This document shows positions 38,860 through 64,000 of a stretch of DNA of 64,000 nt, in pieces (position 1 is the first letter of the stretch; each line of letters begins with the position of its first letter). This stretch comes from Eubacteriales bacterium (GTDB taxonomy: Bacteria; Bacillota; Clostridia; Oscillospirales; CAG-382), in NCBI GenBank assembly GCA_045600125.1, contig JAZRXH010000109.1, positions 3,703 to 67,702 of the forward strand. Reading direction: 5' to 3'. The translations under genes were made by a program, and so were the position numbers. The notes under the pieces are model-generated. The model made no database searches. It saw only the letters and a list, made by a program, of their open reading frames with translations, and was not told the DNA's origin.

Positions 38860-38872
38860 ATCTCCGCCCTCC

Positions 38873-40470: not shown

Positions 40471-40477
40471 TTTTATT

Positions 40478-41523: not shown

Positions 41524-41623
41524 ATTAGAGCAATTTTTCTTCTAAATATTTATTTCGCTCGAGGGAGCCCCGCCGACGGAAGTACGCCGCAGGCGGCGGA
41601 AGACGGCGGGGCGGGCGGGTGGG

Positions 41624-41660
41624 CAAAAAGAAAAGGACAGAAGCAGTTCTTCTGTCCTTT
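41624..41660 (-). terminator. Rho-independent terminator after rpsR (minus strand)
   Basis: Hairpin AAAGGACAGAAG-cagt-TCTTCTGTCCTTT, with a T-run on the minus strand (complement of the A-run at 41624-41635). Confidence 0.65.
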
Positions 41661-41679
41661 CGGTGCTCATTTCCAAAAC

Positions 41680-41922
41680 TCAGTCGGAAATATAAGGCAT
41701 AAGAGCGATATGTCTTGCTCTCTTAACGGCTACGGTGAGCTGTCTCTGATGCTTTGCGCAAGTACCGGTGATTCTGCGAGGGAGAATCTTGGCTCTCTCG
41801 GATACGCACTTGCGAAGTCTTGTAACGTCCTTATAGTCGATATGCTCGATCTTGTCTGCGCAGAACTGACAGATCTTCTTCTTCTTGCGAGTCTTGAACT
41901 GCTGCTGCTTCTGAGCGTCCAT
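41680..41922 (-). CDS. rpsR: 30S ribosomal protein S18
   Basis: Conserved core [59 protein letters not shown]. Start at MDAQK (41922) with AGGAG 9 nt upstream. Confidence 0.9.
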
Positions 41923-42019
41923 GGAATACATCTCCTTTCGACAGCCGCCGTGGGCTCCGGGACTATTCCCGTGCCGCATCGGTCGGCATGCTGCTTGATT
42001 TTTGGGGTCCGTTCTTCTG

Positions 42020-47919: not shown

Positions 47920-50900
47920 TCAGGTAAGATCTACCTTTTTGCCCTTAACGACTACGATGATCTCTGCGTGCTCATACATATCTTCCTTCTTGATTTCGGT
48001 GGAAGCGATGAATGCGTAGAGGTGATCTTCGCCTTCGATTCTGTAGGTCTTGCTCTTGCCGGAGAGGATGGAAGCACTCTTAACGACGAGTTCAATATCC
48101 TTTTCATCGAGGTCGAGGAAGGTAACAACGGTATCGTCGTCAACGATGTAGAACATATCGTCGCCAACAACTTCGAGGAGACCCTCTTCGTCGTCATAGC
48201 TTGCGATTTCTACAAGACCGAAGCCGGTATCCTTAAGTCTGGTGTCGGAATCAGCAACCTTACCGAGCTTGTCAACGGAACCGAACTTGTATTCGTCGTT
48301 GATGGCGCCCTTAGCGGTTACGGGGTAAATACCGAGGTTGTCACAAACAACGTTCTCAGTATCGCTGGATGCTTCGTACTCGAGCTCGGTCTTGCCGGTG
48401 AAGGGATTCATTACATCGTAGTAAACGATTCTTTCATCGCCTTCGGTGGTGATTGCGTGGCTCTTAACGATTCTGTAGTCGTAGGTCTTGCCGGATACGG
48501 TAGGAGCGGAGGTATCTGCTGCTTCTGCGTACATGTAAACAAGATCTTCAACTGCGGTGGAGTGGATATTGTTGCGGAGGATGAACTTGATGTTCTTGAG
48601 CTCGGTGGTGTTGGAGAAGTTGGGAAGATTGTCAATGTCGAAGGTGGTGAACACATCTTCGCCGTCTTCTTCGGTCTTGAGGATGAACTTGGAGCTGTCG
48701 TTGAAGTTAACGAAGGTAGCGGGGCAAACGATGCTGTTGTGCTGGCTTGTGCCCTTCTTTACGAACATGTACTGGGTACCCTTGGACTGGATGAATGCGG
48801 AAGTGGTAGCGCCGTACTCGTCGGTTTCGTTGAAGTAGTAGAGGTTGTCATCCTTGGTGTCCTTCAGAACGGAAGGATCATGGTTCTCGGTCTCGCTGAC
48901 AGGAACGATCCGGAAGGTGAAGTCGCCGGAAATCTTATCCTGAGAATAGGTGAGGAGCTTGTTTACATAGTCGGAGAAGTCATAAGCCTTCGCATCCTTG
49001 TCCCAAGCGGTGTAAGGTCTGTGTGCAATGTCTGCAAGACCCTTGTTGGTCTGAGGCTTAACGGGAACGCTCATGATCTCGCCGTTCATATAAACGTCGA
49101 TGTAGTTGCCGGTGCGCTCAAGCTTACCGTCGTATACTTCTGCAACCTGCACGGTGTATGCATACTTGCCGAGGGTGTTCGGGAAGATGATCGCATAGTC
49201 GGAAGCAACGACCTGCGTCGTAGCGGGCTTTGCGTACATAACAGTGCCGTTGACATAAACGAGGTTGTATTCAAGACCTCTTACGCCGGAGCTGGAGCTG
49301 AAGTACTTGCTGTTGTAAGGACCGGAGGAAGTGGGAACGGAAAGGGTAGCCTTGGTGTTAACACGCTCGATATTCGCAGCCTCGCCAAGACCGTTGCTGC
49401 CGACGAAGTTGATGTACTTAAGGGATGCGCCCCACATACCGCTGCTGGAGCCGTCGAAGTAAACGGTGTTGGAGTCGGAGCCGTTACCGGTGTAGGTCTT
49501 GGTAACGTATTCCCAGTCAGCGATGGCACCAACCTTGATGTAGTTTGCGTCTGCATTGATATAACCGGTAAATACGGAGCCTGCCTTGAGTGTGATGCCG
49601 CCTTCTACGGTAGCGCCTGCGGTATAAATGGTAGGAACACCGTCGGAGTTATAAATCGGGCCGAACTTTTCGCCGAGAGTGGAAGCCTTTCTGTGGCTGT
49701 CGATGCCTTCGCCTTCGTCCGTGTCGATACGGCCTGCGCAGTAAGGCTTGGTCCACATGTAGTCTACAAGACCGTCACCGTCGGAGTCCCAGCAGTCAGC
49801 TTCGTACTGAGCGTAAGTATGGGGGTCAATACCCATGTAGTACTGTACGCCGTAGTCGGAGTAAAGACCCTTGCCTCTGGAGGAAACGTCCTTCAGAAGG
49901 AGTGCTTCGTTGTTAGCGCCGGTGTTGTACCAGCCCCTGATGGAATCCCAGTACTCGTCGCCGCGGCAGAATACGTCAACGTCGGACATGAAGTTGTAGT
50001 CCTGAACGAAGTCTTCGGAATCGGGGTCACGCTGGGTAGCGCCGAGACCGATGAAGGTGATGTCCTTGTCGTCGAGGCTCTTTACGTCAACACCCTTGGT
50101 AAAGGAGTAGGGAGCGTCGAATACATAGTTGGAAACACCGTCAATGAGGACCTCACCGGTGAATCTTCTTGTACGGTTTTCACTGTTGGAGGAAGAAGCA
50201 CTGGTCTGGAAGTTGGTCGCTCTGCTATCCTTGGTTTCCGCTACGAATTTGATCTTGCCGTTCGCATAGTTGGTGCGGGTACCCTTGGAGGTAGCGGCGA
50301 AGATCTTGGGTTCGCCGGAAGCGGAGTCTTCCTTATAGTAGATGCTGAGGTCCATAAGGAAGTAATCGTCAGCCTTGCCTTCAAGACCGAGCTCCGAGAA
50401 AGGATAGTCGCCGAAAAGACCGTCATCTTCGATGTAATCATCGTCGAATACAGCGAGAGAAACGACTTCTTCGCCGTCCTCGTCGTTGTCGGTGGTGGGT
50501 CTGTCAAGACCGTAGTTAGGAGTAGCAACGACTCTCTGAACGGTCTTTTCCATCTTGAAGATCTTTTCAGCCACGTTGTCATACTCGGTGTAAAGCTCCT
50601 GACCGTTCTCGAATACAACGATAGTGCCGTCTTCCAGCTCTTCGGTACCGATGATGGTCTTGTACGCATCGTGTCCGCCTGCCATGTCGGCATAGATGGC
50701 GTTGTAAAGGAGGATGGCTACGTTGCCTCTGGAAAGAGGAGAATCGAACTTGAGGTTGGAGGGAACGTCCTCGTCGAGGCCGATCTCTTCAGCGATGTCG
50801 ATGTAGTCATAGGGATAGTTGAGGTTAACGTCCTTCTCGTAACCGAGAGCACGAACCAGCATTACGTATGCGTCCTGAAGGGTGATCTCGCCCTTGGGGT

Positions 50901-51270
50901 TAAAGGTAGTCTTGGAGGTACCCTTAATGACCTTGTTCTCGCTTGCCCACGAGATCATGAAGTAGAATGTAGGATCGTCAAGGTCTGTGAAGGGAGTGAG
51001 GTTATCGCCGCCCTCGACCGACTTGCCGGCCTTCATCATTCTGTAGATGAACGCAGCCATCTGCTGACGTGTCACCTTTTCGTTGGTTCCGAAAGTCTCG
51101 CTGCTGGTGCCCTTGGTGATGCCTACGCTCGCCAAAAGGTCAACTGCACGGGTCAGAGCCTTGTTGGAAGCCGGTACATCGTTGAATTTTGCGGATGCCG
51201 CAAAGGTTAATGTGCCGAGTGCAAGGACTGCCGATAACACAGCAGAGAGAAATTTCACTGTTTTTCTCAT
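47920..51270 (-). CDS. Large cell-surface protein with three N-terminal SLH domains (S-layer-associated)
   Basis: Signal peptide (start MRKTVKFLSAVLSAVLALGTLTFAASA at 51270; GGAGG 9 nt upstream). Three SLH repeats (FNDVPASNKALTRAVDLLASVGITKG ...). Then about 900 aa of beta-rich sequence. Confidence 0.8.
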   Translation of the reverse strand: MRKTVKFLSAVLSAVLALGTLTFAASAKFNDVPASNKALTRAVDLLASVGITKGTSSETFGTNEKVTRQQMAAFIYRMMKAGKSVEGGDNLTPFTDLDDPTFYFMISWASENKVIKGTSKTTFNPKGEITLQDAYVMLVRALGYEKDVNLNYPYDYIDIAEEIGLDEDVPSNLKFDSPLSRGNVAILLYNAIYADMAGGHDAYKTIIGTEELEDGTIVVFENGQELYTEYDNVAEKIFKMEKTVQRVVATPNYGLDRPTTDNDEDGEEVVSLAVFDDDYIEDDGLFGDYPFSELGLEGKADDYFLMDLSIYYKEDSASGEPKIFAATSKGTRTNYANGKIKFVAETKDSRATNFQTSASSSNSENRTRRFTGEVLIDGVSNYVFDAPYSFTKGVDVKSLDDKDITFIGLGATQRDPDSEDFVQDYNFMSDVDVFCRGDEYWDSIRGWYNTGANNEALLLKDVSSRGKGLYSDYGVQYYMGIDPHTYAQYEADCWDSDGDGLVDYMWTKPYCAGRIDTDEGEGIDSHRKASTLGEKFGPIYNSDGVPTIYTAGATVEGGITLKAGSVFTGYINADANYIKVGAIADWEYVTKTYTGNGSDSNTVYFDGSSSGMWGASLKYINFVGSNGLGEAANIERVNTKATLSVPTSSGPYNSKYFSSSSGVRGLEYNLVYVNGTVMYAKPATTQVVASDYAIIFPNTLGKYAYTVQVAEVYDGKLERTGNYIDVYMNGEIMSVPVKPQTNKGLADIAHRPYTAWDKDAKAYDFSDYVNKLLTYSQDKISGDFTFRIVPVSETENHDPSVLKDTKDDNLYYFNETDEYGATTSAFIQSKGTQYMFVKKGTSQHNSIVCPATFVNFNDSSKFILKTEEDGEDVFTTFDIDNLPNFSNTTELKNIKFILRNNIHSTAVEDLVYMYAEAADTSAPTVSGKTYDYRIVKSHAITTEGDERIVYYDVMNPFTGKTELEYEASSDTENVVCDNLGIYPVTAKGAINDEYKFGSVDKLGKVADSDTRLKDTGFGLVEIASYDDEEGLLEVVGDDMFYIVDDDTVVTFLDLDEKDIELVVKSASILSGKSKTYRIEGEDHLYAFIASTEIKKEDMYEHAEIIVVVKGKKVDLT

Positions 51271-51624
51271 GTTCTTATCCTCCTGAAATTTAGATACGGC
51301 AAATAGAAATCTGCCCACGGTGCTATTATAATATAGTTTTTTTCAATTTGCAAGACTTTTTTTAAGTTGTAACATATTTGTAACAAAGAAAATGCTATTT
51401 CCATTTTTAGGGCTGTTAATATTAACAATTTTACGCTTATCGAACTGAGCAACATGCACAATCGGGAAAAATCTATGAAAATTCAGGGAGAGAAAAGTGT
51501 CGGGAAACTGAAAATTTGTAAACACCGGGACACTTTTCCTTCGGAAAAAGCCCGATTTTGAACGGTCGGCAGAAAGAGCAAAATCCGCTCCGGAAGCTCT
51601 CCGGGGCGGACTGTGTTTACCTGC

Positions 51625-52992
51625 TTATTGATCATCCTGCACGTCGTCCGAGTCTTCCTCCGGCGGCATCGTGTCGGGAACCGTGAAGGGTGCCTTTTCG
51701 GAGCAGCCGGTGATTTTCAGAAGCTCCCACGTCTCGCTTTCCTCCGAGGCAAGCACAAGAGCGGCGTCACCGGAAAAGTCGGTGCCGTCCACATAGGCGA
51801 TGTCCGTGACCTCTTTGCCGCAGGCGTTGATATAGCCGCACTTTCCGTCCTTGCGGACAAGGGCGAGACCGCCGGAGAAGTTATTCGCCTTATCGTAGAT
51901 GCACTCGCAGATCACGCTGCCGTCGACAGCGACAAAGCCCGTCTTGCCGTCCTTCTCCACCCGGATCGTGCCCTGTGACGGGAGGTAGACACGGTCGTAG
52001 ACGCATTCAACCACCTCGGCGCCGTTTTTGTTGACAAAGCCCGCCTTGCCGTCCCGCATCACGGGAGCGACTCCCCCGGAGAACATGAAGTATTCGTCAC
52101 GGTTTCCGTTCGGCATGGCGTCGAAGCCGGTAATAACGACCTCGCCGTTCTTGTCCATATATCCCGTGCGGGTTCCGAGGACGATGCAGGCAAGGTCCTC
52201 GCTGTAATTGTAGAGCTTGTCGCAGCTTACGGCGAACTTCATCTTTCCGGTCTTGTCGATAAAGCCCTTCGAGGTGCCGTCCGAGGCTCTCGCCATGCCG
52301 CAGTGGAAGTCGTCGAAGTATTCATAGTCGCAGAACAGCTTCATCCTGCCGTTTTTGTTGATATAGCCGAGACCTTCCTCGCTCATGACCCGGGCAAGCC
52401 CGTCGCTGAAGGGCACGGCCTCATAGAGACCTTCTATCACGGTGTTCCCTTCGGTATCCACGAAGAGATAGTATTCGCCGTCATAGAGGAGTCCCAGACC
52501 TTCACTGAAGGCGTAGGCATTTTCATAGCCGCAGGGGACGATAAAGTCCTTTTTCTCCAAAGAATAATAGCCCCAGCCGCCGTTCTCCGAGAAGATGGGG
52601 AGAATGCCGTCGGCGATCGTCAGCTTTTTGGCATACTCATAGGGAAGCACGGTGCTGCCCTCCGCATCCGCTATCGCTATGCTGTAATCCTCGTCGAAAA
52701 TCGCAAAAAGTCCTTCGCCGAGCGCTTCGGCATAGAAGCAGTCCACGTTTTTCCCGTCGCCCCCTGCTTCGACCTTCGTCACGAGCCGTCTGTCTTCCGG
52801 AATGCCGCCGTTTTCGTCGGGAGCGTCCGTGCCTTCCGCCGTGTCGGTATTTTCGGTGATCTCCTCACCGCCTTCGTCCTTCGGCATTTTCCCGTTCTTT
52901 TCACATCCCGTAAAGCACCCGGATGCAAGGAGCAGTGCCGCAAGCAGTGCGCAGGTCCTCCCTGTTCTGTTCATCTTTTTCATTCTTTTCAT
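51625..52992 (-). CDS. WG-repeat (KWG/WG_beta_rep) lipoprotein
   Basis: Lipobox LLASGCFTGC. More than six repeats of the form (F/Y)S(E/G)GLAxVxxxGKxGFI(D/N)KxGK. Confidence 0.7.
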   Translation of the reverse strand: MKRMKKMNRTGRTCALLAALLLASGCFTGCEKNGKMPKDEGGEEITENTDTAEGTDAPDENGGIPEDRRLVTKVEAGGDGKNVDCFYAEALGEGLFAIFDEDYSIAIADAEGSTVLPYEYAKKLTIADGILPIFSENGGWGYYSLEKKDFIVPCGYENAYAFSEGLGLLYDGEYYLFVDTEGNTVIEGLYEAVPFSDGLARVMSEEGLGYINKNGRMKLFCDYEYFDDFHCGMARASDGTSKGFIDKTGKMKFAVSCDKLYNYSEDLACIVLGTRTGYMDKNGEVVITGFDAMPNGNRDEYFMFSGGVAPVMRDGKAGFVNKNGAEVVECVYDRVYLPSQGTIRVEKDGKTGFVAVDGSVICECIYDKANNFSGGLALVRKDGKCGYINACGKEVTDIAYVDGTDFSGDAALVLASEESETWELLKITGCSEKAPFTVPDTMPPEEDSDDVQDDQ

Positions 52993-53067: not shown

Positions 53068-53772
53068 TCATTCCCCATCGGGTGCTTGAGGCTCGATCTC
53101 GCTGTCGAAGACCGCCTTTGACAGAACGCCCCCGAAAAGCTCCCACGGATATCCCGGCTCGGGAAGCTCCCGGACGTCGATGGACTTCTTCGTCACGGGA
53201 TGCACGAAGCGGATATGCGCCGACGCCAGAGCCATAAGCCCTCTGTTAGCGTGGCTTCCGTACTTTCCGTCCCCAAAGACGGGCATTCCTCTGTGTGAAA
53301 ACTGCGCCCGGATCTGGTGGGTCCTGCCGGTACGGAGGCGCACCCGCACAAGGGACAGAGTACCGTCCTCGGAATCGGCGCTTCCAAGCAGTTCATAGTC
53401 CAGCACCGCCTCTTTTACGCCGCCCCGCATACGGTCGGTAACGTAGCTTTTATTGGCGGCGGCGTCCCGGAACAGAAGGTCCCGGAAGGTACCGCATTTC
53501 TCCTTCGGCACGCCGTGGACGACCGTCAGATATTCCTTGGTAACGCCGCCCTCTGCCATCAGCGCCGACAGCCTGCCGGTGAGCTCCTTCTTTTTGGAAA
53601 AGACCATCAGTCCTTCGGTGGCTCGGTCGAGCCGGTGGACGAGTCCCGCGTAGTCGAGGTCGTTTTCGGCTTTCAGTACGGACAGGACGTTTTCGCCGTG
53701 GCTGTCCTCACTCAGCATCCCCGCAGGCTTCTTCGCCACCAGAAGATGCTTGTCTTTATAGAGTACCTTCAA
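53068..53772 (-). CDS. RluA-family pseudouridine synthase
   Basis: Catalytic motif HRLDRATEGLMVF and the RluA fold. Confidence 0.85.
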   Translation of the reverse strand: MKVLYKDKHLLVAKKPAGMLSEDSHGENVLSVLKAENDLDYAGLVHRLDRATEGLMVFSKKKELTGRLSALMAEGGVTKEYLTVVHGVPKEKCGTFRDLLFRDAAANKSYVTDRMRGGVKEAVLDYELLGSADSEDGTLSLVRVRLRTGRTHQIRAQFSHRGMPVFGDGKYGSHANRGLMALASAHIRFVHPVTKKSIDVRELPEPGYPWELFGGVLSKAVFDSEIEPQAPDGE

Positions 53773-53939
53773 CTTATCAAACCATCTTTTCTCAGTTATT
53801 TCTTATTATTTCCGCATTTGTTCTTCCATATCATACGTCACGGTAACATCATAGCAGATATCTTTGTATATCTCAAGAATAGGAGGTGAATATTTTGTAT
53901 TGCATCAAAACTCCTGCGATGCCCCACTAAAAGATTACT

Positions 53940-54340
53940 ATAGGAGCCCACAGAGGTGCCCCCGCGGGCACCTCGAGACCCCACCTCAGGCAAAATCTGG
54001 AATACCGATGCCCGAGTATCGTCCCGTTTTGCCGCCATATGTGCGAGAGGCAAAACTCACCACTACACCAAAATTGTGAAATTCGCCTCTGTTGCGGCGG
54101 TGCTTTATGCCGCAACAGACAGTAAACAGCGCCTCATTATTCGAAACCCGAAAACAAAACTCCGATGAAGTCGGATCTTGACTTCATCGGAGAAGTAGAG
54201 AGTAATTATTTATGCCGCCCCATGAGTTTGACCGCTTGCATATAAGGCGGTCAAACGGGATAATACTCGGGCATCGGGGATTACGATTTTGTCTGCGGTG
54301 CATTCCCGATTTGCCCGCGGGGGCTCCCCGCTGCCTGCAG
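53940..54340. repeat. MITE-like element: about 110-bp imperfect terminal inverted repeats flanking a core with an R1 hairpin and an 11-bp-stem palindrome
   Basis: The left arm (about 53960-54060) aligns with the reverse complement of the right arm (about 54220-54330). Shared blocks: GCCCCCGCGGGCA, CAAAATC, CCGATGCCCGAGTAT, TCCCGTTT, GCCGCC..ATATG, CAAAACTCA. The core holds CTGTTGCGGCggtgctttatGCCGCAACAGACAGTA (54085-54135) and CCGATGAAGTCggatcttGACTTCATCGG (54160-54190). Confidence 0.6.
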
Positions 54341-54352
54341 GGGCATCCCCGC

Positions 54353-57300
54353 TTAGGGCTTTACGTAGTAGATCTTGTAGCCTTCTTCAGCCACGTTGTT
54401 CTTCAGGAAGTTCTCGGCTGTGCCGGTGAACATGGACTGTGTTGCACCGCCGGCACCGAACTTGAGGAACTTATGACCGTAAGGAAGAACGTAGGTATTG
54501 TTCTTGTAGAGAGGCATCCAGGAAGCCTGGTTTGCACCCATATCTACGGTGAAGTGTTCAGCCATGAAGAAGATGTTATCCTCGATAAGGAAGTTTTCGG
54601 AGCAGTTGTAGTGTTCCCAACCCTTGATCTGAGCGGAACGGGAAGGATCCATGCCCCAGCCTGCGCCGGAGTAAGCAAGGAGGTTGCCCTTGATGAGGAT
54701 GTTCTTCATAAGTCTGGTTACGCCTGCGGAGTCGGGCTTACCCATGAAGTACTCGATGTTGTAGATACACTTTTCGATGACGTTGTTGGTATACTCAACG
54801 TTTGCTTCAACGCAGTCGTTGTTTCCGCCGGAGGAGATCTGGTGAGTGATACCTGCGTCGTAGCACTGGTATACGTAGCAGTTGTCGATGTAGTAACCGT
54901 CGCAGGAACCGTAAACCTCGATACCGTTACCGAATCTGGTCATGGAACCGGACTTGTAGTTCTGTGCGCAGCCGCCGATCCAGCCTACCTCACAGTTGGT
55001 GAAGGTAACGTTCTTGGTACCGCCGAGACCGCCTACACCGTGGTTGCCGGAGAAGAGGATCGCAATATTGTCGTATACGCAGTTGGAAGCGCCGCCGTTG
55101 ATGGTGTGGTTCTTGGTAGCAAGCTCGATGTTGGAGTAGAGCTTACCGGGGTTGCCTTCGTCGCAGCGGGCGTAGGTGGTGGAGGTGAAGCCGGTAAGGT
55201 CGGGAGAATCGCCGCTGATGTTGCCGTATACGGTAACGAAGCTGTGGTTAGCCTTGAAGCAGTTGGGATCGTCCTTCTTGAATGCCTTGCCTTCGATGAG
55301 GAGAACGCCGTCCTTGATGGTGGGAACGATCTTTTCGAAGGTGTCCTTTCTGTCGAGGATGATGTTACCGATATCGTTGGTCTTCTTTGCGTATTCCCAA
55401 ATGTTGGAGGTGCCTGCAACGAGCTTCCAGTTTTCTTCGCCGGCAGCGTCGCCGAGGGTGTTACCGTTGAGGATAGGCTTTGCGCCTTCGCCGTATGCGC
55501 CGTAGGTCACGCCGTTCTTAGCGGAAAGCTGGCTGGTAATTCTGTATTCGCCGCCTCTCTCAAAGAGAACTGCGTCGCCGGACTTGGGTGCGGCAAAGCC
55601 CTTAGCGGCGGTCTTGAATGCGGTTGCGGGAGACTTACCGTCGTTCGCATCGTTACCGTTGGGAGATACATAATACTTGGTGCCCTTTACTTCGGGATAT
55701 GCGTCCTTGGTAGCCTTGATCTCGGCGATTCTGTCAGCGAGAAGCTTTTCAATCTCAGCCTTCTTTGCTTCGCCTGCTTCATAGTCGGGAGTGAAGTCCT
55801 CGGTGATGGCGTCTTCGCCGACTACCATTACCCAGTGCTCCTTGTTGTCGGAGTCAATGTAGCAAACGTGTTCCTTGGATGCGTCGATGATGTCGGCGTA
55901 TGCCCAGTGATCCTTGATATCGGTGAAGGTGGAGCCGAGAACGGAGGAGAAGATGCCCTCTGCGCTGCACTTCTTGCCGTATGCGTTGTTGATGATCTTA
56001 ACGACCTCAGCACGGGTGATGGAATCGTCGGGCTTGAAGGAGTAGGTGCCGTCACCGTTCTTGGAGCCGTTGATAAGGCCGGACTTTGCAGCAGCCATGA
56101 TCACGTTGTACTTGGGGTGAGATTCGTCCACGTCAACGAAGGTCTTGGTGTAAAGCTCTGCATTGAGGAGACCCATGTTGTATACGAGCTCTGCAAATTC
56201 GGCTCTGGTGATGTTCTGATTGGGAAGGAATTCGCCGGTGTAGCCCTTGAGGTAGCCGAGGTATTCGCAGGTGGAAACGTAGTTGTAGAACCAGTCGTTC
56301 TTAGTTACGTCGGAGAATGCGGTCTCATGATGAGCAGGCACTCTGTCGTCGCCGCCGCAGGCAAGTCTTGTCACGATGGTGCAAGCCTCGGCTCTTGACA
56401 TGCTGCCTTCGGGCTTGAAGGTGTTGTCCTCGTAGCCCTTGATGAATGCGGTGTGGTAATCAGCCGAAATGGAGGGATCCTTTGCGGCGATGATGTGAGA
56501 AACGTAAATCTCGTCGTTGGCATCCATGTCGTATGCTCTCGAAACGGTGCCGAGAGGATATACGTGCATCTGGGTGATGACCGGATCGTCTGCCTCCAGA
56601 CGGTTTTCCTGTGCGGGAGTAAGGTCAAATGCGGCTGCCGCCCATCTGTTGGCAACGATGGGATCGAGGGACTTCATGCTGGTAGCCTTGGAGAAGTACT
56701 TGGACTTCATGATGTTGATCTGGGGGTTGCCCTCTACGGGAGCCTGGGAAACGTACTTGTAAACCAGGATCATGGTAGCGTAGTGGTCAACGTTGATCTT
56801 GGCGCCGCCGTAGCTCCAGCCGTCGAGGTTGATACCGGAGTTGGTCTCGGAAGCGGTGTTGGGGATGACCTTGACGGTCTGCTTGCCGTCGTACTCTGCG
56901 TTCTCGGTGAAGGCAGTGTCCTTCTTGTCGCAGATGCCGTTGAAGTAGCTCGGGAAGTCGAGAACGACTACGTCCTCGCCTACGAAGTTGTCCTTCCAGC
57001 TGATGCTGAAGGAAACGTCGGTGTCGGGCATAACGAACTCTTCGCCGCCCTTGTAAAGCTTGGATTCGTCAAAGGTAACGGTCCAGCCCTTGGCTTCCTT
57101 GGTCTCAGCGGAAACGGTGATCTCGGGAACCTTGATGATGTCGCCTTCCTTCGCCTGCATATCGGCAGGAACGCTGCCGGTCATGCCGGGAATGTTGCCT
57201 GCGTTGAAGGTGATGTTATAGAGCTTGTCCTTGTTGGGGTTCTCGGTGGTGAAGGTGAAGCTGCTGATGAGCATGTAGTCGGTGGGCTTCATGGAAGTCG

Positions 57301-57853
57301 CAGCGAGCTTATCGCCGAAGGGATAGAAGTGGAGCTGCTGAAGCATGCCGCCCTTTTCGCCGGTGACCTTGTCCTTCACAGCGGTGCCCATGTTGAAGGC
57401 TGCCGTCGTCCACTTGCCTGCCTCGGCAGTTTCGTAGGACTTCATGCCGGCAGTACCGGTAAGAACGTCGCCGTTCTTCATAAAGTTGATGTAAAGGTTG
57501 AATTCATCGGGGTTCTCGGAAACGTACTTGTACTCAACGAGGATGTACTTGTAGTAGCTGAGGTCGATGCCGAGAGAGCCGATGCTGTAGCCGTCAATGT
57601 TGATGGCGCCTGCTTCGGAGGTGTCTACGATGGGCGCAACCTTGATAACGTCGCCCTTTTCCGGGTCGGTGACCGTTTCAACGGTCGCTCTTTCTTTCTT
57701 GTCCACGTTGCCCTTCTGGATCTTCGAATAAGGGATCACGAGGGGATCGGGATGTTCTGTCACTTCGTCGTCAGCGCTGACGGTGCAGAACGCAGATGCG
57801 GTGGCTGTAAGCAGTGCCGCAAGTGCGAGGGAGAGAATTTTCTTGAAATTCAT
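54353..57853 (-). CDS. Large surface protein: signal peptide, duplicated novel about 230-aa N-domain, three central SLH domains, and a C-terminal right-handed parallel beta-helix (pectate-lyase-like) domain; paralog 1 of 3
   Basis: Signal MNFKKILSLALAALLTATASA. Internal duplication (each copy contains YKYVSE/Q and QLHFYPFG / QMHVYPLG). SLH repeats at about aa 470-650. Beta-helix repeats (NCVYDNIAILFSGNHGVGGLGG ... NNVIEKCIYNIEYF). Confidence 0.8.
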   Translation of the reverse strand: MNFKKILSLALAALLTATASAFCTVSADDEVTEHPDPLVIPYSKIQKGNVDKKERATVETVTDPEKGDVIKVAPIVDTSEAGAINIDGYSIGSLGIDLSYYKYILVEYKYVSENPDEFNLYINFMKNGDVLTGTAGMKSYETAEAGKWTTAAFNMGTAVKDKVTGEKGGMLQQLHFYPFGDKLAATSMKPTDYMLISSFTFTTENPNKDKLYNITFNAGNIPGMTGSVPADMQAKEGDIIKVPEITVSAETKEAKGWTVTFDESKLYKGGEEFVMPDTDVSFSISWKDNFVGEDVVVLDFPSYFNGICDKKDTAFTENAEYDGKQTVKVIPNTASETNSGINLDGWSYGGAKINVDHYATMILVYKYVSQAPVEGNPQINIMKSKYFSKATSMKSLDPIVANRWAAAAFDLTPAQENRLEADDPVITQMHVYPLGTVSRAYDMDANDEIYVSHIIAAKDPSISADYHTAFIKGYEDNTFKPEGSMSRAEACTIVTRLACGGDDRVPAHHETAFSDVTKNDWFYNYVSTCEYLGYLKGYTGEFLPNQNITRAEFAELVYNMGLLNAELYTKTFVDVDESHPKYNVIMAAAKSGLINGSKNGDGTYSFKPDDSITRAEVVKIINNAYGKKCSAEGIFSSVLGSTFTDIKDHWAYADIIDASKEHVCYIDSDNKEHWVMVVGEDAITEDFTPDYEAGEAKKAEIEKLLADRIAEIKATKDAYPEVKGTKYYVSPNGNDANDGKSPATAFKTAAKGFAAPKSGDAVLFERGGEYRITSQLSAKNGVTYGAYGEGAKPILNGNTLGDAAGEENWKLVAGTSNIWEYAKKTNDIGNIILDRKDTFEKIVPTIKDGVLLIEGKAFKKDDPNCFKANHSFVTVYGNISGDSPDLTGFTSTTYARCDEGNPGKLYSNIELATKNHTINGGASNCVYDNIAILFSGNHGVGGLGGTKNVTFTNCEVGWIGGCAQNYKSGSMTRFGNGIEVYGSCDGYYIDNCYVYQCYDAGITHQISSGGNNDCVEANVEYTNNVIEKCIYNIEYFMGKPDSAGVTRLMKNILIKGNLLAYSGAGWGMDPSRSAQIKGWEHYNCSENFLIEDNIFFMAEHFTVDMGANQASWMPLYKNNTYVLPYGHKFLKFGAGGATQSMFTGTAENFLKNNVAEEGYKIYYVKP

Positions 57854-58103
57854 ACTGTACTTGTGCTCCTTTCAAAAGCAAAAATTTGACCCTTTCATAT
57901 TAGCACAAAATTATGTCCTAATCTACAATAATTCGTCACATAAACATAATTTCGTACGATATCACAAATACAGGTGCTTCATTTTGTGCAAAAAGCAATA
58001 AAATCCTGCCGCACACTTTGCTTTTTACTGAGTATACGGCAGGATTTCTTAATAAATATGCGGGATTTGCTTATTTTCGGCTCTTCCCCGTCTGTTTTTT
58101 CGG

Positions 58104-61100
58104 TCAGCCCTCGAGGAAATACAGGTGATATCCGTTTTCCTGCATTTTGTTCCGGACGAAATCCTCGGCACCGTCGCCGTAGTTGTTCGTCCAGGATGCG
58201 AACTTCATGAATTTGTGCCCGTAGGGAAGAATGTAGGTGTTGTTCCTAAAGCCAGGCATCCACTCCTCCCGGCTTGCGCCCATATCCAGCGTATAATACT
58301 CCGCCATAAGGAAGATGTTTCCTTCGATGACAAAGTTTTCGGCACGGTTGTAGTGCTGCCATCCCTTGATCTGGGCGGAACGGTCGGGAGCCATGCCCCA
58401 GCCGGCGCCGGAATAGGCGAGGATGTTGTCCTTTATGAGGATGTTCTTCATGTACCGCAGCGCCGCAGAGGAGTCGGCAGCGCCCATGAAGTACTCGATG
58501 TTGTAGATACACTTTTCAATGACGTTGTTCGTATACTCCACGTTCTGATCCAGTACATCGTTCGTTCCGCCTCTGGAGTACTGGTGGGTAACGCCGGCGT
58601 CATAGCACTGATAAATATAACAGTTATCAATATAATAACCGTTGCAGGAGCCGTATACCTCCACGCCGTTTCCGAAGCGTACCATCGAGCCGTTCTGGAA
58701 ATACTGGGCACTGCCGCCGATCCAGCCGATCTCGCAGTTTTGGAAGCGCACGTTTTTGCTTCCTCCGATGCCGCCGATGCCGTGACAGCCGGCGAACATG
58801 ACGGCGATGTTGTCGAACACGCATCCGGAGCCGGAGCCGACGATCGCCGTGTTCCTTGTGGCAAGCTCGATATCGGAGTAGAGACTGCCGGGGTTGCCTT
58901 CGTCACAGCGGACGTAAAGGGTGCTGTTAAGGCTCGTATAGTCGGTGGAATTTCCGTTCACGCTTCCGTAAACGACAAAGAAGGTGCGGTTCTTTGTAAA
59001 GGAGGTGGCGGGATCAAAGCTCCTGCCGCCCACAAGAAGGACAGAGCCGCCGACGCTGGGAACGATCTTCTCAAAGGTCGAGGTGCGGTTCAGAATGATA
59101 TTGCCTATATCGTTGACGGGTCTTGTGAGCTTCCAGATATTGCTCGTTCCCGGAACGAGCGTCCAGTTGGAAGCACCGCCCACGTTGCCGATAAGGTTTC
59201 CGTTGATGAGCGGCTTTGCGCCCTCTCCGTAGGCTCCGTAGGTCACGCCTGCCTTCGAGGTGAAGGTGGTCCTCCACTCTCCGCCTCTTTCAAGGAGAAG
59301 TGCGTCGCCGCTCTTGACCAGCGAATTGCCTCTTTCAATGGTGGCTACGGCGGTGGCGGGGGATCTTCCGTCGTTCGCATCGCTGCCGCTGGGGGAAACG
59401 TAAATTTTCGTACCGGTGATATCCGAATAGTCGCCGACCGAAGCCCGGATCTCGGCTGCTCTTTCGGCAATGAGGGCGTCCACTTCATTTTTCTTGGCAA
59501 GACCCGCTGCAAAGTCCACCTCGGCTGCTTCCTCCGACAGAGTGCTTCCGCCGTCGAAGATCAGATGCTCGACGCCGTTTTCGTCAAGGTAGACCACGTA
59601 GCTTGCCGAAGCGGCGGCGATATCCGCATACGCCCAGTGCGAAGTGTCCACGTCCTTGTACAGCTTCCCGGCGACGGTTTCCATATCCACATCGGGGGCA
59701 CCCTCGATATTGAAAGCGGCATTGATCATCCGCACCGCTTCGGCACGGGTGATAAGATTTCCTCCCGCAAGACGGGAGCCGTTTCCGCTTTGTCCTGAGA
59801 AAGGCGTATTACAGGAAAGGTTCAGCGCCGTTCTTTCGGATGCGGGAAGCGATCTTCTGTAAATGATCTCACTGAATTCCGATCTTGTGATGGGGCTGTC
59901 CGGCAGGAAGTTTCCGCCGCAGGGAGCGATAAAGCCGTTTCCTTCGCAGTAAGCGATATATTTTGCATACCACGCTCCGGACGATACGTCGGAAAAGTTG
60001 CTCGTTCCGTTTTCCGGTACAGAGGCTTCCCCTCCTGCATCGGCTTTCGCCAGAGCGGCGCACGCTTCGGCACGGGTCATGGTTCCGTTCGGACGGAAGG
60101 TACCGTCCTCGTAGCCGCCGATGTAACCGCTGCGGACGTCGGCACTCTGCACCTTATCCGTTACGGCGATCAGGCGGTCCACGTAAATAATGTCGTCCGC
60201 TCGCATCGTTGAGGGCTTATTTCCCCCAAGCGGATAAACGTGCAGCTGCCGCAGGGTCGGTGCCTGAGCGGCGATCGTTTTTCCGGCGCAGGGGGTGAGG
60301 TCAAAGGAAGCCGCCGTCCAGCGGTTCGCCCGGATGGGGTCGGCGGACGCCATTTCGGTGCCGCCCGTAAAGGACTCGCCCTTCATGACGTTGATCTGCG
60401 GATGCCCCGTTTTGGGCGACGAAGAAATATACTTGTAGGAAAGAATCAGCGACTTATACTGCGTCACGTCGATGTTAGCGCTTCCGTATACCCAGCCGTC
60501 AAGGTTGATGCCGGTATTGACGGAAGAATAAATATTGGGAACGACCTCGACCACCGGGACCCCTTCATAGGTGGTTTTGGAAGCGACGGCGGTATTCTTG
60601 TTATCGCATATGCAGAGGAAATAATCGGGGAAGCGCAGGATCTTGACGTCGGGACTGACAAGGGCATCTCCCCAGCTGACCCGGAGGGAAAGGTCCGATC
60701 CCGGCATCACGATCTGCTCTCCGCTGCGGTATACCCGTGAGCTGCCGGAGACCGTCCAGCCCACAGCGACCCTGCCCTCTGCCGAGACTCCCGGCTCCGG
60801 GAGAGTCAAGACATCTCCTGCGTGCGCCTTGTAATCCTCCGGAAGCGAGCCGGTCCTGCCGGGAATGTTGCCCGCCTCGAAGGTCACGTTATAGAGTCTG
60901 CTCCCTTCGGGGTTCACTCCGGAAAAGGTAAAATTCCCCACAAGCATGTAGTCCGATGCCTCCATGGAACGGGGCGATCTTCCCTGCCCGAAGGGATAGA
61001 AGTGGAGCTGTTCGAGGATACCGGTGCCGGTGACCTTGCCCTGCAGCGCTTCGCTCATATCGAAAACAGCCGTTGCCCATTCGCCTTCGCAGACGTCTTC

Positions 61101-61517
61101 GTTTGATTCAACGCCGACAGCGGCGGAAAGGACGTTGCCGTTCCGCATATAGTTGACGAAGGGTCGGAGGCTCTCGGGATACTCCGAAACATACTTGTAT
61201 TCAACGGTGATATACTTATAATAATTGAGATCGATCCCGTATTTGGTCAGGTAGAAGCCGTCGATCATGACGGCTCCCGATTCGGTCGTATCCACGACGG
61301 GCGAGATCTTTACGACCGTTCCCTTTTCGGGGTCGCTGACCGTTTCGACCGTCGCTTTCTTTTTGCCGTCCACGTTGCCCCTCTGGATCCCGGTATAGGG
61401 GATCACCAACGGCTCGGTGTTTACCGCCGAGACGCTGAAGGAGGCGCAGGAAAGCATCATTGCCAGCGAAAGCGCCGCGCAGACAAATCTCAAACTCTTT
61501 GAGAAAATCGTTTTCAT
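58104..61517 (-). CDS. Paralog 2 of the SLH / parallel-beta-helix surface protein family
   Basis: Same architecture and about 50-60% aa identity to 54353..57853, with near-identical nucleotide blocks in the beta-helix region. Confidence 0.8.
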   Translation of the reverse strand: MKTIFSKSLRFVCAALSLAMMLSCASFSVSAVNTEPLVIPYTGIQRGNVDGKKKATVETVSDPEKGTVVKISPVVDTTESGAVMIDGFYLTKYGIDLNYYKYITVEYKYVSEYPESLRPFVNYMRNGNVLSAAVGVESNEDVCEGEWATAVFDMSEALQGKVTGTGILEQLHFYPFGQGRSPRSMEASDYMLVGNFTFSGVNPEGSRLYNVTFEAGNIPGRTGSLPEDYKAHAGDVLTLPEPGVSAEGRVAVGWTVSGSSRVYRSGEQIVMPGSDLSLRVSWGDALVSPDVKILRFPDYFLCICDNKNTAVASKTTYEGVPVVEVVPNIYSSVNTGINLDGWVYGSANIDVTQYKSLILSYKYISSSPKTGHPQINVMKGESFTGGTEMASADPIRANRWTAASFDLTPCAGKTIAAQAPTLRQLHVYPLGGNKPSTMRADDIIYVDRLIAVTDKVQSADVRSGYIGGYEDGTFRPNGTMTRAEACAALAKADAGGEASVPENGTSNFSDVSSGAWYAKYIAYCEGNGFIAPCGGNFLPDSPITRSEFSEIIYRRSLPASERTALNLSCNTPFSGQSGNGSRLAGGNLITRAEAVRMINAAFNIEGAPDVDMETVAGKLYKDVDTSHWAYADIAAASASYVVYLDENGVEHLIFDGGSTLSEEAAEVDFAAGLAKKNEVDALIAERAAEIRASVGDYSDITGTKIYVSPSGSDANDGRSPATAVATIERGNSLVKSGDALLLERGGEWRTTFTSKAGVTYGAYGEGAKPLINGNLIGNVGGASNWTLVPGTSNIWKLTRPVNDIGNIILNRTSTFEKIVPSVGGSVLLVGGRSFDPATSFTKNRTFFVVYGSVNGNSTDYTSLNSTLYVRCDEGNPGSLYSDIELATRNTAIVGSGSGCVFDNIAVMFAGCHGIGGIGGSKNVRFQNCEIGWIGGSAQYFQNGSMVRFGNGVEVYGSCNGYYIDNCYIYQCYDAGVTHQYSRGGTNDVLDQNVEYTNNVIEKCIYNIEYFMGAADSSAALRYMKNILIKDNILAYSGAGWGMAPDRSAQIKGWQHYNRAENFVIEGNIFLMAEYYTLDMGASREEWMPGFRNNTYILPYGHKFMKFASWTNNYGDGAEDFVRNKMQENGYHLYFLEG

Positions 61518-61571
61518 ATATTCCTCACTTTGACCGAACTTTCACGCCGAAAAGTCTGCTTTTTGCGTGTG

Positions 61572-64000
61572 TTACGGATAAACGTAGTACAGAGAAGCTC
61601 CGTCCTCATGGACGACGTTCTGCAGAACCGAGGCGGCGTTTCCGTCATAGGTATACTGGGTCGCACCGCCGTAGCCGTAGAGCACGAAGCGGCTGCAATA
61701 GGGAATGATATAGGTATTACCCGAAAGCACGGGGATCCAGGCGCTTTGTCTTGCGCCGACCTCCCACGTATTGTATTTTGCCGAAAGGAAGGTATTGTTC
61801 CGGATTATATAGTTTTCGGTACGGTTGTAGTGATCGGCCCAGCCCTTGATCTGCGCCGAGCGGGTCGGGTTCGCCCCCCAGCCGTACCCCGAGTATGCCA
61901 GAAGATTGTCCTCGATGAGCACGTTCTTCATGATTCTTACATACTCGTCGGTATCGGGGTTGCCGAGGAAGTACTCGATGTTGTAGATACACTTTTCGAT
62001 GACGTTGTTCGTGTAGCCGATGTTCTGTTCGATGCAGTTCGACGCTCCGCCGGAGGAAATCTGGTGCGTGATGCCCGCATCGTAGCACTGGTACACGTAG
62101 CAGTTGTCGATATAGTATCCGTTGCAGGCGCCGTAAACCTCGATGCCGTTGCCGTATCTGGTCATGGTTCCGGACTTGTAGTTCTGCGCACAGCCGCCGA
62201 TCCAGCCCACCTCGCAGTTGGTGAAGCGGACATTCGACGTGCCGCCGAGACCTCCCACGCCGTGGTTTCCGGAATAGAGGATACAGAGATTGTCGTAAAG
62301 ACAGTTGCTTGCCGCACCGTTGATGGTGTGGTTCTTTGTGGCAAACTCGACCGAGCTGTAAACGGTACCGGGGTTTCCGGCGTCACAGCGCATATACAGG
62401 TCGGAGTTGACTGTCCTTAAGTCCGCTCCGTCCGTTTCCAGCGTGCCGTATTCCACGATGAAGGAGTTGTCCCGTGCGAAGGAAGACTTTTTGTCAAAGA
62501 CCTTACCGTCTACCTGCATCACACCGCCGGAGATCAGCGGAAGGAGCTTTTCTGCCGTCTTTTCGCCGCCGTTCAGAATGATGTTGCCCACATCGTTTGT
62601 CTTTTTATAGAATTTCCAGATATTCGTCGTTCCCGGCACAAGGCTCCACTTTTCGGCGCCCACGCCGCTTCCGAGAGTATTGCCGTTGAGGATGGGCTTT
62701 GCGCCCGTGCCGTAGGCGGCGTAGGTCACGCCGTCCCGGGCTTTCAGCTCGGAGGTGATCCGGTATTCTCCGCCCCTCTCGAAGAGAAGTGCGTCGCCGT
62801 ACTTTACGGTATTGAAGCCCTTGGCGGCGGTACGGAAGGCAGTCGCCGGGGACTTGCCGTCGTTCGAGTCATTGCCGGTGGGCGAAACGTAGTATATCGT
62901 TCCGGCGGGAGCGGGATAGGAATCGGGGGTACTGCGGATCTCGGCGATACGCCGTGCAAGCTCCGCTTCGGCTGCCGTCTTTGCCGCCTCGCCCGCCGCA
63001 TAGTCCGGCTCGAAGTCGCCGTCGTTTGTCATGACGGCGCCGTCACAGATCGCCCAGTGCTCCTTTCCGAGGGCGTCGTAATACGAAACGTGGGTGGAGG
63101 AAGCGTCCACGATGTCCGCAAACGCCCAGTGATCACGGATATCCTTGTAGGTGAAAAGCTGTGCCGAGCGGAAAATCGCATCGGTACTGCATTCCTTGGA
63201 AAGAGCGTTGTTGATGAGCCGTACTGCTTCGGCACGGGTGATGAGGCTTTCCGGACGGAAGGAATGGGTGCCGTCCGGCTCCGCAAAGCCGTTTATGAGA
63301 CCGCTCGAGGCAGCGGCGGATATGATCTCGTAATACGGATGCGAAGCGTCCACGTCGGTAAATACGTTTGCCTCGCCCGCCTTTCCGGCAAAGGACAGCC
63401 GGTAAATCAGCTCACAGAACTCCGCTCTCGTAATGGCTTTGTCCGGCAAAAAGGCGCCGGAATAGGAAACGAGAAGTCCCTTTCTTTCACAGTAGGCGAT
63501 ATACTTTGCATACCACGCCGTACCTTCCACGTCGGTAAAGGAGTTTTCCGTGCTGTCCGGAACAAGGCTGTCGCCGCCGGCGTCCACTCTTGCGGCAATG
63601 GCGCAGGCTTCGGCTCTCGTGATGCTGCCGCCCGGGTGGAAGGTATTGTCCGGGAAGCCGTTTATGAAGGCGGGGAGATATTCGGCGCTGTCTGCCTTGT
63701 CCTTTAAGAATATGAGGTCGGTTATATAGAATTCATCCTCTGCGGAAAGAGCGGAGGGACGAATCGTGTTTCCGAAGGGATAAACGTGCATCTGGATAAG
63801 GAACGGATCGGCGCCGGGAACGATATTGTTTCTGGCAGAGGACATATCGAAAACGGCAGCACAGAGCTTGCCGCACTGAAGAGGCTCGGCGGCTTTCATG
63901 GAGATCGCCTTTGTCAGATTGTTCCGCTTCATGATGTTGATCTGCGGGATCGCCGTCGTGTTCGGGGAATCCGAAACGTATTTATACAGCATGATAACGG
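61572..64000 (-). CDS. Paralog 3 of the SLH / parallel-beta-helix surface protein family (N-terminal part lies beyond the window end)
   Basis: ORF open to the window edge. C-terminal beta-helix is about 70-80% aa identical to paralogs 1 and 2. SLH repeats are visible. Confidence 0.75.
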   Translation of the reverse strand, partial: VIMLYKYVSDSPNTTAIPQINIMKRNNLTKAISMKAAEPLQCGKLCAAVFDMSSARNNIVPGADPFLIQMHVYPFGNTIRPSALSAEDEFYITDLIFLKDKADSAEYLPAFINGFPDNTFHPGGSITRAEACAIAARVDAGGDSLVPDSTENSFTDVEGTAWYAKYIAYCERKGLLVSYSGAFLPDKAITRAEFCELIYRLSFAGKAGEANVFTDVDASHPYYEIISAAASSGLINGFAEPDGTHSFRPESLITRAEAVRLINNALSKECSTDAIFRSAQLFTYKDIRDHWAFADIVDASSTHVSYYDALGKEHWAICDGAVMTNDGDFEPDYAAGEAAKTAAEAELARRIAEIRSTPDSYPAPAGTIYYVSPTGNDSNDGKSPATAFRTAAKGFNTVKYGDALLFERGGEYRITSELKARDGVTYAAYGTGAKPILNGNTLGSGVGAEKWSLVPGTTNIWKFYKKTNDVGNIILNGGEKTAEKLLPLISGGVMQVDGKVFDKKSSFARDNSFIVEYGTLETDGADLRTVNSDLYMRCDAGNPGTVYSSVEFATKNHTINGAASNCLYDNLCILYSGNHGVGGLGGTSNVRFTNCEVGWIGGCAQNYKSGTMTRYGNGIEVYGACNGYYIDNCYVYQCYDAGITHQISSGGASNCIEQNIGYTNNVIEKCIYNIEYFLGNPDTDEYVRIMKNVLIEDNLLAYSGYGWGANPTRSAQIKGWADHYNRTENYIIRNNTFLSAKYNTWEVGARQSAWIPVLSGNTYIIPYCSRFVLYGYGGATQYTYDGNAASVLQNVVHEDGASLYYVYP

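What the first reader, a model, noticed from the sequence alone, without database searches (positions are those of the whole stretch)
54353..64000. Tandem array of three paralogous SLH-middle / beta-helix-C-terminal surface proteins with near-identical nucleotide blocks (recombination substrate, likely surface variation)
Three consecutive minus-strand genes of about 3.4 kb share an unusual architecture. The order is a signal peptide, two copies of an unrecognised domain of about 230 aa, three SLH domains in the middle of the protein rather than at a terminus, and a parallel beta-helix. Long stretches of the beta-helix coding region are almost identical at DNA level. For example GAAGTACTCGATGTTGTAGATACACTTTTCGATGACGTTGTT occurs at about 54758, 58487 and 61968, while the N-terminal regions have diverged. 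This pattern suggests gene conversion, with diversification of the exposed N-domains, and possibly a polysaccharide-lyase-like or adhesin activity anchored via SLH.
Basis: seen in the sequence. Interest (0 to 1): 0.6.

Follow-up and report, generated by a model that had tools for sequence, protein, structure and literature searches.

The report
Tandem SLH-anchored beta-helix surface protein paralogs
Three neighbouring genes encode old, well-diverged copies of a cell-wall-anchored surface protein that probably binds and cleaves a polysaccharide; they belong to a large uncharacterised family in uncultured gut Clostridia, and nothing shows that they recombine to vary the cell surface.

Summary
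The three tandem minus-strand paralogs are real: A at 54353-57853, B at 58104-61517, and C from 61572 to the window end (N-terminus cut off). It runs signal peptide, sugar-binding-module-like beta-sandwich, small Flg_new-like domain, second beta-sandwich, three SLH repeats, linker helix, then a right-handed parallel beta-helix. The claim of "near-identical nucleotide blocks" is not supported. The longest shared exact block is 42 nt, at the conserved motif NNVIEKCIYNIEYF. Elsewhere DNA identity is 46-85%, and synonymous divergence (dS) is about 0.9-2.4 in every segment. These are old duplicates, not recently homogenised copies.

The same holds in related genomes. Paralogs within one genome never exceed about 87% identity, while orthologues in two sister genomes are 88-99% identical over long alignments (1.6-4.7 kb), mostly most of the gene. 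That argues against concerted evolution or cassette shuffling.

The beta-helix has no Pfam match. Its fold is closest to the glycoside hydrolases GH141, GH120 and GH136 and to the PL9/PL6 lyases. It belongs to a large family, with at least 39 genes in one buffalo-gut genome.

Most likely these are surface-anchored glycan-binding and glycan-cleaving proteins that diversified by duplication. Enzymatic activity is inferred, not shown.

The parts
54353..57853 (-). Gene A, 1166 aa, complete paralog. It appears to have its own promoter region and terminator.
   Evidence: ORF list, translation, identical to database protein P0001.
58104..61517 (-). Gene B, 1137 aa, complete paralog. It starts 54 nt after the stop codon of C, preceded by a GAGGAA ribosome-binding site, so it is probably co-transcribed with C.
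   Evidence: Identical to P0002, which lies on the same 67.7-kb NCBI contig as P0001.
61572..64000 (-). Gene C, partial paralog. 808 aa are visible: the end of the second beta-sandwich, three SLH repeats and the beta-helix. About 360 N-terminal residues lie beyond the window.
57773..57853 (-). Sec-type signal peptide of A (MNFKKILSLALAALLTATASAFCTVSA). B has an equivalent one.
   Evidence: Read from the translations. No predictor was run.
57245..57748 (-). Domain X1 of A (aa 36-203), a beta-sandwich resembling carbohydrate-binding modules (CBMs).
56996..57232 (-). Small beta domain of A (aa 208-286), weakly like the Listeria-Bacteroides repeat (Flg_new).
   Evidence: Pfam PF09479, E 0.087, below threshold. 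Some family members match Flg_new at E down to 7e-5.
56468..56980 (-). Domain X2 of A (aa 292-462), an internal duplicate of X1.
   Evidence: tblastn X1 versus X2: 30% identity, E 3e-19. Same fold in the model.
55874..56449 (-). Three SLH repeats of A (aa 469-660), the cell-wall anchor. The equivalent regions are about 59529-60128 in B and about 63039-63671 in C.
   Evidence: Pfam PF00395, E 7e-32 with 3 stretches in A, 2 in B and 3 in C. tblastn coordinates.
55715..55783 (-). Long alpha-helix (aa about 691-713) linking the SLH anchor to the beta-helix.
   Evidence: DSSP on the model shows a helix at residues 6-28 of the C-terminal segment.
54356..55690 (-). Beta-helix domain of A (aa 722-1166), from an uncharacterised family and the likely catalytic module. 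Equivalent regions are 58107-59528 in B and 61575-63017 in C.
54746..54787 (-). The 42-nt block shared by all three genes. It encodes NNVIEKCIYNIEYF, which includes the invariant Glu (E1034 of A). The copies are at 58488-58529 (1 mismatch) and 61968-62009.
   Evidence: The probability of a run this long under codon shuffling is 0.001-0.015 per pair.
54160..54192 (-). Intrinsic terminator after gene A.
   Evidence: 13-bp stem followed by a T-run.
57990..58047 (-). Hairpin with a T-run after gene B (AAATCCTGCCG...CGGCAGGATTT TATTGCTTTTT), a likely terminator. An AT-rich promoter-like site for A follows at 57910-57939.
   Evidence: Read in the sequence. The loop is too long for the scan's rule.

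Best explanation
A, B and C are old tandem duplicates of one modular surface protein, arranged as two transcription units: C-B, then A. Each protein is exported by a Sec signal peptide. A central triplet of SLH repeats holds it non-covalently on the cell wall. SLH triplets are known to bind pyruvylated secondary cell-wall polymer.

Two arms project from this anchor. The N-terminal arm carries two beta-sandwich domains that resemble carbohydrate-binding modules, with a small Flg_new-like domain between them. The C-terminal arm is a linker helix followed by a right-handed parallel beta-helix.

I infer that the beta-helix is a glycan-cleaving enzyme, either a glycoside hydrolase or a polysaccharide lyase. 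Its active groove would be lined by carboxylates and arginines conserved across the family, on successive coils: E270, R288, D314, Q320, E349 and R387 in C-domain numbering. The beta-sandwiches would target the substrate.

The array is a small part of a lineage-specific multigene family in uncultured gut Clostridia. In that family duplication and divergence, not ongoing recombination, produce a repertoire of related surface proteins, probably for different dietary or host glycans.

Shown here: the gene structure, the domain folds, the age of the duplicates, the size of the family, and the lack of homogenisation. Inferred: cell-wall binding, sugar binding, catalysis and substrate.
For: Gene and domain structure.

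Folds:
- The beta-helix model has pLDDT 92.
- Foldseek's top hits are all glycoside hydrolases: GH120 XylC, GH141 and GH136.
- A profile search of PDB sequences hits GH136 lacto-N-biosidases at E 1e-13 to 2e-15 and a PL9 lyase at 1e-5.

Conservation pointing to an active site: E270, R288, D314, Q320, E349 and R387 are at least 90% conserved even among 38 distant representatives.

Partner domains in relatives include SLH (18 of 38), dockerin (2) and esterase (2), which fits polysaccharide breakdown. AraC-type regulators are the only recurrent neighbours, 10 of 121.

Old duplicates:
- dS is 0.93-2.41 in all segments.
- Codon identity at identical residues is 0.55, against 0.45-0.51 expected.
- The beta-helix core has lower dN (0.15-0.32) at similar dS.

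Family:
- 334 relatives were found in species-representative genomes. All of the 77 loci fetched are from uncultured gut Clostridia.
- 127 C-domain copies lie in 78 loci, often in tandem arrays of 2-5.
- At least 39 ORFs are present in one genome.
- The architecture X-Flg-X-SLH-Cdom recurs in 44 ORFs.
- There are 1608 cluster representatives at E<=1e-30.

No concerted evolution: within-genome pairs are at most 87% identical, while orthologous pairs are 88-99% identical over long alignments.
Against: - No enzymatic activity or substrate is shown.
- The half of the beta-helix that carries the conserved residues has no sequence relative among solved structures.
- The sequence similarity to GH136 and PL9 is confined to the N-terminal cap of the helix.
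- I could not superpose the model on known active sites.
- No sugar transporter or catabolic operon is consistently adjacent.
- The 42-nt three-way identity and the mosaic signal show that some exchange between copies may have occurred.
Confidence: 0.6

Rival explanations
1. The proteins are non-catalytic adhesins or glycan-binding proteins. The beta-helix and the beta-sandwiches would only bind ligands such as plant fibre, mucus or other cells, and the family expansion would diversify adhesion.
Against: The strongest conservation is on charged and polar residues in the central coils (E270, R288, D314, Q320, E349, R387), kept across very distant members. Binding surfaces usually vary more among paralogs. 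The best fold matches are enzymes. Dockerin and esterase fusions occur in relatives.
Confidence: 0.2
2. One reading: the array is a recombination substrate in which gene conversion homogenises the beta-helix region and reshuffles the exposed N-domains to vary the surface.
For: One 42-nt block is identical in all three copies, more than codon shuffling predicts (P 0.001-0.015 per pair). The same motif differs at 3-14 positions in other genomes. A 3SEQ-like test finds a significant mosaic pattern: A resembles C in alignment columns 601-700 and 951-1000, and resembles B in columns 851-900 and 1051-1150.
Against: dS is 0.93 or more in every segment. No identical tract exceeds 42 nt. Nucleotide identity is 46-85%. 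Higher C-terminal identity is explained by lower dN at the same dS. In related genomes paralogs stay at or below 87% identity, while one-to-one orthologues are 88-99% identical over long alignments, including a tandem pair. No invertase, recombinase or repeat system flanks the array.
Confidence: 0.05
3. The proteins act on the bacterium's own envelope, for example trimming capsule, exopolysaccharide or secondary cell-wall polymer, or they are S-layer-associated structural proteins. They would not serve nutrient acquisition.
For: They carry an SLH anchor. The neighbours are envelope-related: another SLH protein, a WG-repeat lipoprotein and an S11 D-Ala-D-Ala carboxypeptidase. No sugar-uptake genes are linked.
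Against: Dozens of diverged copies per genome are hard to explain by housekeeping envelope work. CBM-like modules, dockerin and esterase partners and AraC neighbours fit substrate-induced polysaccharide degradation better.
Confidence: 0.12
4. The genes are of phage origin, as tailspike or depolymerase-like genes in a prophage remnant.
Against: PHROGs match only the SLH segment, not the beta-helix. The integrase island is 13 kb away and differs in GC content. The family carries signal peptides and SLH anchors and is scattered over many chromosomal loci.
Confidence: 0.03

Closest known systems
SLH-anchored modular carbohydrate-active enzymes of Gram-positive bacteria, for example Ruminiclostridium cellulolyticum Cel5I (GH5-CBM17-CBM28-SLH, PMC4976890), Paenibacillus ChiW (PMC5132251) and the Paenibacillus JDR-2 surface xylanase system (PMC4765114)
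   Same: A secreted multi-module protein held on the cell wall by three SLH repeats and combined with beta-sandwich sugar-binding modules. The best fold match of the N-domain is CBM28, a module that Cel5I also carries.
   Different: In those enzymes the SLH triplet is terminal and the catalytic module belongs to a defined CAZy family. Here the SLH triplet is central, with an arm on each side, and this arrangement is conserved in 44 relatives. Neither the beta-sandwich nor the beta-helix matches any Pfam family.
GH141 (Bacteroides thetaiotaomicron BT_1002, PDB 5mqp)
GH136 lacto-N-biosidases (LnbX, ErLnb136, TnX; PDB 5gqc, 6kqs, 7v6m)
   Same: These are the only solved structures found by sequence, E 2e-15 to 1e-13. 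They give the highest identity in structural alignment, 21-23%, and Foldseek E values near 1e-7.
   Different: Most of the match lies in the N-terminal cap of the helix: profile positions 28-114 for two of the three chains, and up to 258 of 476 for 7v6m. The region holding GH136's catalytic Asp pair, D568 and D575 in ErLnb136 (PMC7335108), is not aligned. GH136 needs a helical GH136-I/LnbY partner domain (PMC7335108); here only a single helix precedes the beta-helix.
PL9 and PL6 polysaccharide lyases (Pel9A 1ru4, rhamnogalacturonan lyase 5olq, PL6 alginate lyases)
   Different: The sequence match covers only about 45 cap residues. Whether a Ca-binding acidic cluster and a Lys/Arg base are arranged as in these lyases was not tested.

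Membership tests
SLH-domain cell-wall-anchored proteins (Pfam PF00395) | Three tandem SLH repeats scoring above the Pfam gathering threshold | tested here: met
   A scores 109.6 bits with 3 stretches, C 103.1 bits with 3, and B 80.4 bits with 2. The cut-off is 20.8 bits.
SLH-domain cell-wall-anchored proteins (Pfam PF00395) | A conserved TRAE-type motif in each repeat, which established knowledge links to binding of pyruvylated cell-wall polymer | tested here: met
   Read in the translations. A has SRAE, TRAE, TRAE. B has TRAE, TRSE, TRAE. C has TRAE, TRAE, TRAE. Binding itself cannot be tested here.
Pectate-lyase-like right-handed parallel beta-helix superfamily | A right-handed three-stranded beta-helix fold | tested here: met
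Pectate-lyase-like right-handed parallel beta-helix superfamily | A match to the generic Pfam Beta_helix model (PF13229) or to DUF1565 | tested here: not met
   None of the three window proteins matches at E<=10. 14 of 38 distant relatives do match PF13229, weakly.
GH136 lacto-N-biosidase | Sequence homology across the catalytic beta-helix | tested here: not met
   The profile hit is mostly in the cap, positions 28-114 and at most 258 of 476. The profile of the conserved half finds no PDB relative.
GH136 lacto-N-biosidase | A catalytic Asp pair seven residues apart (D568 and D575 in ErLnb136, PMC7335108) | tested here: inconclusive
   No invariant D-x6-D is present in the family alignment. No residue-level structural superposition was available.
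GH136 lacto-N-biosidase | An obligatory helical GH136-I/LnbY partner domain or gene | tested here: not met
   Only one 23-residue helix precedes the beta-helix. No recurrent partner gene is found nearby.
GH141 / GH120 beta-helix glycosidases | Sequence membership in the CAZy family | not testable with these tools
Known carbohydrate-binding module families (CBM28, CBM27, CBM22, CBM11) | Sequence match to a CBM family, and ligand-binding residues | tested here: not met
Contingency or antigenic-variation gene arrays maintained by gene conversion | Long near-identical DNA tracts between copies and evidence of recent exchange | tested here: not met
   The longest identical tract is 42 nt. dS is 0.93 or more. 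Orthologues are stable across sister genomes.

The most novel reading that the evidence does not exclude
The C-terminal beta-helix would define a new, so far unclassified family of glycan-cleaving enzymes. It would have its own catalytic apparatus built around the invariant YDAG and NIEYF motifs. It would be displayed in an unusual two-armed arrangement: binding modules, then a central SLH anchor, then the catalytic helix. It would be amplified to dozens of diverged copies per genome in an uncultured lineage of gut Clostridia found in herbivores and in people on high-fibre diets. That would make it a Gram-positive, SLH-based counterpart of the large glycan-degrading repertoires of Bacteroidota.
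Probability: 0.3. Interest if true: 0.6.

Novelty: new variant of a known kind. Interest (0 to 1): 0.38.

Why it matters
The headline idea of a recombining, surface-varying gene array does not hold, so the locus should not be reported as a variation system.

What remains is useful to people who study gut polysaccharide breakdown. It is a large, unnamed beta-helix family with 1608 cluster representatives at E<=1e-30 and at least 39 genes in one genome. It has a conserved putative active site, no Pfam model and no close solved structure. It is carried by uncultured Clostridia from ruminant, Hadza and Nepali guts. Expressing a few members could reveal a new enzyme family and the substrates this lineage lives on.

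Tried and rejected
- Exact look-up of A and B on their source contig found nothing, so the missing N-terminus of C and any further copies beyond 64000 could not be seen.
- Cluster look-up gave no names or accessions.
- Pfam at E<=10 on the isolated domains gave only a sub-threshold Flg_new hit. NCBIfam matched only the SLH part. PHROGs matched only the SLH part.
- A PDB profile search with the conserved half of the beta-helix found nothing meaningful, so catalytic residues could not be mapped onto a known enzyme.
- The AlphaFold-database fold library was not available.
- The literature searches found no paper on this family.
- The neighbour-gene survey found no conserved operon, only AraC regulators in 10 of 121. 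Synteny with the window's neighbours is weak.
- I considered that the 42-nt block might be a nucleotide-level functional element conserved across genomes. I rejected this because homologous motifs in other genomes differ at 3-14 positions.
- I considered an assembly duplication. I rejected this because the copies share only 53-58% protein identity.

Full report
**1. What is there**

The end of the window holds three consecutive minus-strand ORFs.
- A lies at 54353-57853 and encodes 1166 aa.
- B lies at 58104-61517 and encodes 1137 aa.
- C runs from 61572 to beyond position 64000. 808 aa are visible, and about 360 N-terminal residues are missing.

Shuffled sequence gives no match. A and B are identical to two database proteins on one 67.7-kb NCBI contig. 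The contig itself could not be fetched.

C's stop codon and B's start codon are 54 nt apart, with a ribosome-binding site and no terminator between them. A hairpin with a T-run and an AT-rich promoter-like stretch separate B from A. A strong terminator follows A. The likely transcription units are therefore C-B and A.

**2. Domain anatomy**

Pfam recognises only the SLH repeats: three in A and C, two in B. By eye, all nine repeats keep a TRAE-type motif.

The N-terminal 440 aa contain two homologous domains of about 175 aa. X1 and X2 are 30% identical, E 3e-19. Between them lies an 85-aa segment with a sub-threshold Flg_new match.

The C-terminal 481 aa model has pLDDT 92 and pTM 0.92. It shows a long helix followed by a right-handed parallel beta-helix.
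- Foldseek puts GH120, GH141 and GH136 on top.
- By sequence, a family profile reaches only GH136 lacto-N-biosidases (E 1e-13 to 2e-15) and a PL9 lyase (E 1e-5). These matches lie mostly in the N-terminal cap of the helix.
- A profile of the conserved second half finds no solved relative.

**3. Are there near-identical DNA blocks?**

No. The evidence is as follows.
- Codon-aligned comparison gives 46-85% nucleotide identity in 150-nt windows.
- The longest exact matches are 42, 35 and 30 nt, all at one place.
- dS is 0.93-2.41 in every segment.
- At identical residues the same codon is used 55% of the time, against 45-51% expected from codon usage.
- The beta-helix core is more similar because dN is lower there (0.15-0.32, against 0.40-0.63 in the N-terminal domains) at similar dS. 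That is purifying selection.
- The most diverged segment is B's SLH region, with 38% aa identity to A.

The 42-nt block encodes NNVIEKCIYNIEYF, the most conserved motif of the family, and includes an invariant Glu. Its three-way identity is longer than codon-shuffled controls give, P 0.001-0.015 per pair. It is not a universal nucleotide constraint, because the same motif in other genomes differs at 3-14 positions. A very short conversion tract or chance with strongly preferred codons are both possible.

A 3SEQ-like test finds significant mosaicism among the three genes. This is compatible with ancient exchange, but also with region-specific rate shifts such as B's fast-evolving SLH segment.

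**4. The wider family**

Only about 18 full-length relatives appear in the word-indexed protein search. The scan of species-representative genomes, however, finds 334 coding relatives. All of the 77 loci fetched come from uncultured Clostridia, labelled Oscillospiraceae, Eubacteriales or Lachnospiraceae. Their sources are buffalo, yak, roe deer, and Hadza and Nepali human guts.
- The fetched loci hold 127 C-domain copies, often in tandem arrays of 2-5.
- One buffalo-caecum genome has at least 39 such ORFs.
- The architecture X-Flg-X-SLH-Cdom recurs in 44 ORFs. Variants have one to four X domains, no anchor, or several beta-helices. The central position of the SLH triplet is therefore a conserved family trait.
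- The beta-helix profile finds 1608 cluster representatives at E<=1e-30 and 5712 at E<=1e-10 among 1.84 billion.
- Partner domains in 38 diverse members are SLH (18), generic Beta_helix (14), dockerin (2), esterase (2) and a few others.
- Sources name these proteins only "right-handed parallel beta-helix repeat-containing protein" or "S-layer homology domain-containing protein".
- Across these distant members E270, R288, D314, Q320, E349 and R387 (C-domain numbering) stay at least 90% conserved. Carboxylates on successive coils are what beta-helix hydrolases and lyases use, so this is my main reason to favour catalysis. It is an inference.
- Neighbouring genes show no conserved operon. AraC-type regulators are the only recurrent neighbours, 10 of 121.

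**5. Direct test of the variation model in relatives**

Within any one genome, paralog pairs reach at most 87% nucleotide identity over about 440 nt, and at most 80% over more than 1 kb. Two sister genomes from Hadza samples share one-to-one orthologues at 88-99% identity over alignments of 1.6-4.7 kb, mostly most of the gene. This includes a tandem pair whose two members are only 79% identical to each other. Paralogs therefore evolve as independent, stable lines. There is no concerted evolution and no cassette shuffling.

**6. Verdict**

The array, the architecture and the 42-mer are real. The "long near-identical stretches" are not.

An SLH-anchored beta-helix protein, possibly polysaccharide-active, is well supported. 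Gene conversion, a recombination substrate and surface variation are not.

The best explanation is a set of old tandem duplicates within a large lineage-specific family of surface-anchored glycan-binding and glycan-cleaving proteins. Confidence is 0.6 for the whole statement. It is higher for the structural and evolutionary parts and lower for catalysis.

The closest known systems are SLH-anchored modular enzymes such as Cel5I (PMC4976890) and ChiW (PMC5132251). At the fold level the closest are GH141, GH120, GH136 and PL9. Membership in any of those enzyme families is not established. For GH136, two of three defining features tested were not met (PMC7335108).

Novelty is a new variant of a known kind. 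Interest is moderate to low for the original claim. It is somewhat higher for the uncharacterised, massively expanded beta-helix family.

Noticed in passing
window 47920-51318 (-): Another large secreted protein of about 1117 aa. It has SLH repeats at the N-terminus (Pfam E 6e-13) and no other recognisable domain. It is unrelated to the A/B/C family.
   Followed up: partly
window 51625-52992 (-): A 455-aa protein made of WG-containing beta repeats (PF14903, E 1e-44). Its N-terminus looks like a lipoprotein signal (LLASGC). It sits between the two sets of SLH genes.
   Followed up: no
window about 38000-42000: A low-GC island (35-39% against about 53% elsewhere). It carries a tyrosine integrase (40481-41317) and an SPFH/Band-7 protein with multiple zinc ribbons (38876-40219). 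It is probably an integrated mobile element.
   Followed up: no
window 21141, 47725, 54109 (+): The short motif GCCGCAACAGACAGTA occurs three times, where 0.01 is expected. Two copies lie in the 3' intergenic regions just after SLH-protein genes, within a 43-nt repeat that is 77% identical and next to a hairpin. It could be a small intergenic repeat element.
   Followed up: partly
loci L065, L066, L073, L052, L009: Some relatives carry three to five beta-helix domains in one ORF, for example Cdom x4-SLH-Cdom in 1871 aa. Others form runs of stand-alone beta-helix genes of about 500 aa placed head to tail.
   Followed up: partly
loci of CAKSCN versus CAKSUT (for example L036/L040, L028/L035): Orthologous family genes in two Hadza-gut genomes range from 88% to 99% nucleotide identity. 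This is a wide spread for one genome pair. It may reflect unequal rates among family members or exchange between strains.
   Followed up: no
window 53900-54350: The 450-nt spacer between gene A and the RluA-type pseudouridine synthase gene (53068-53772) contains several GC-rich palindromes besides the terminator. No gene is evident there.
   Followed up: no
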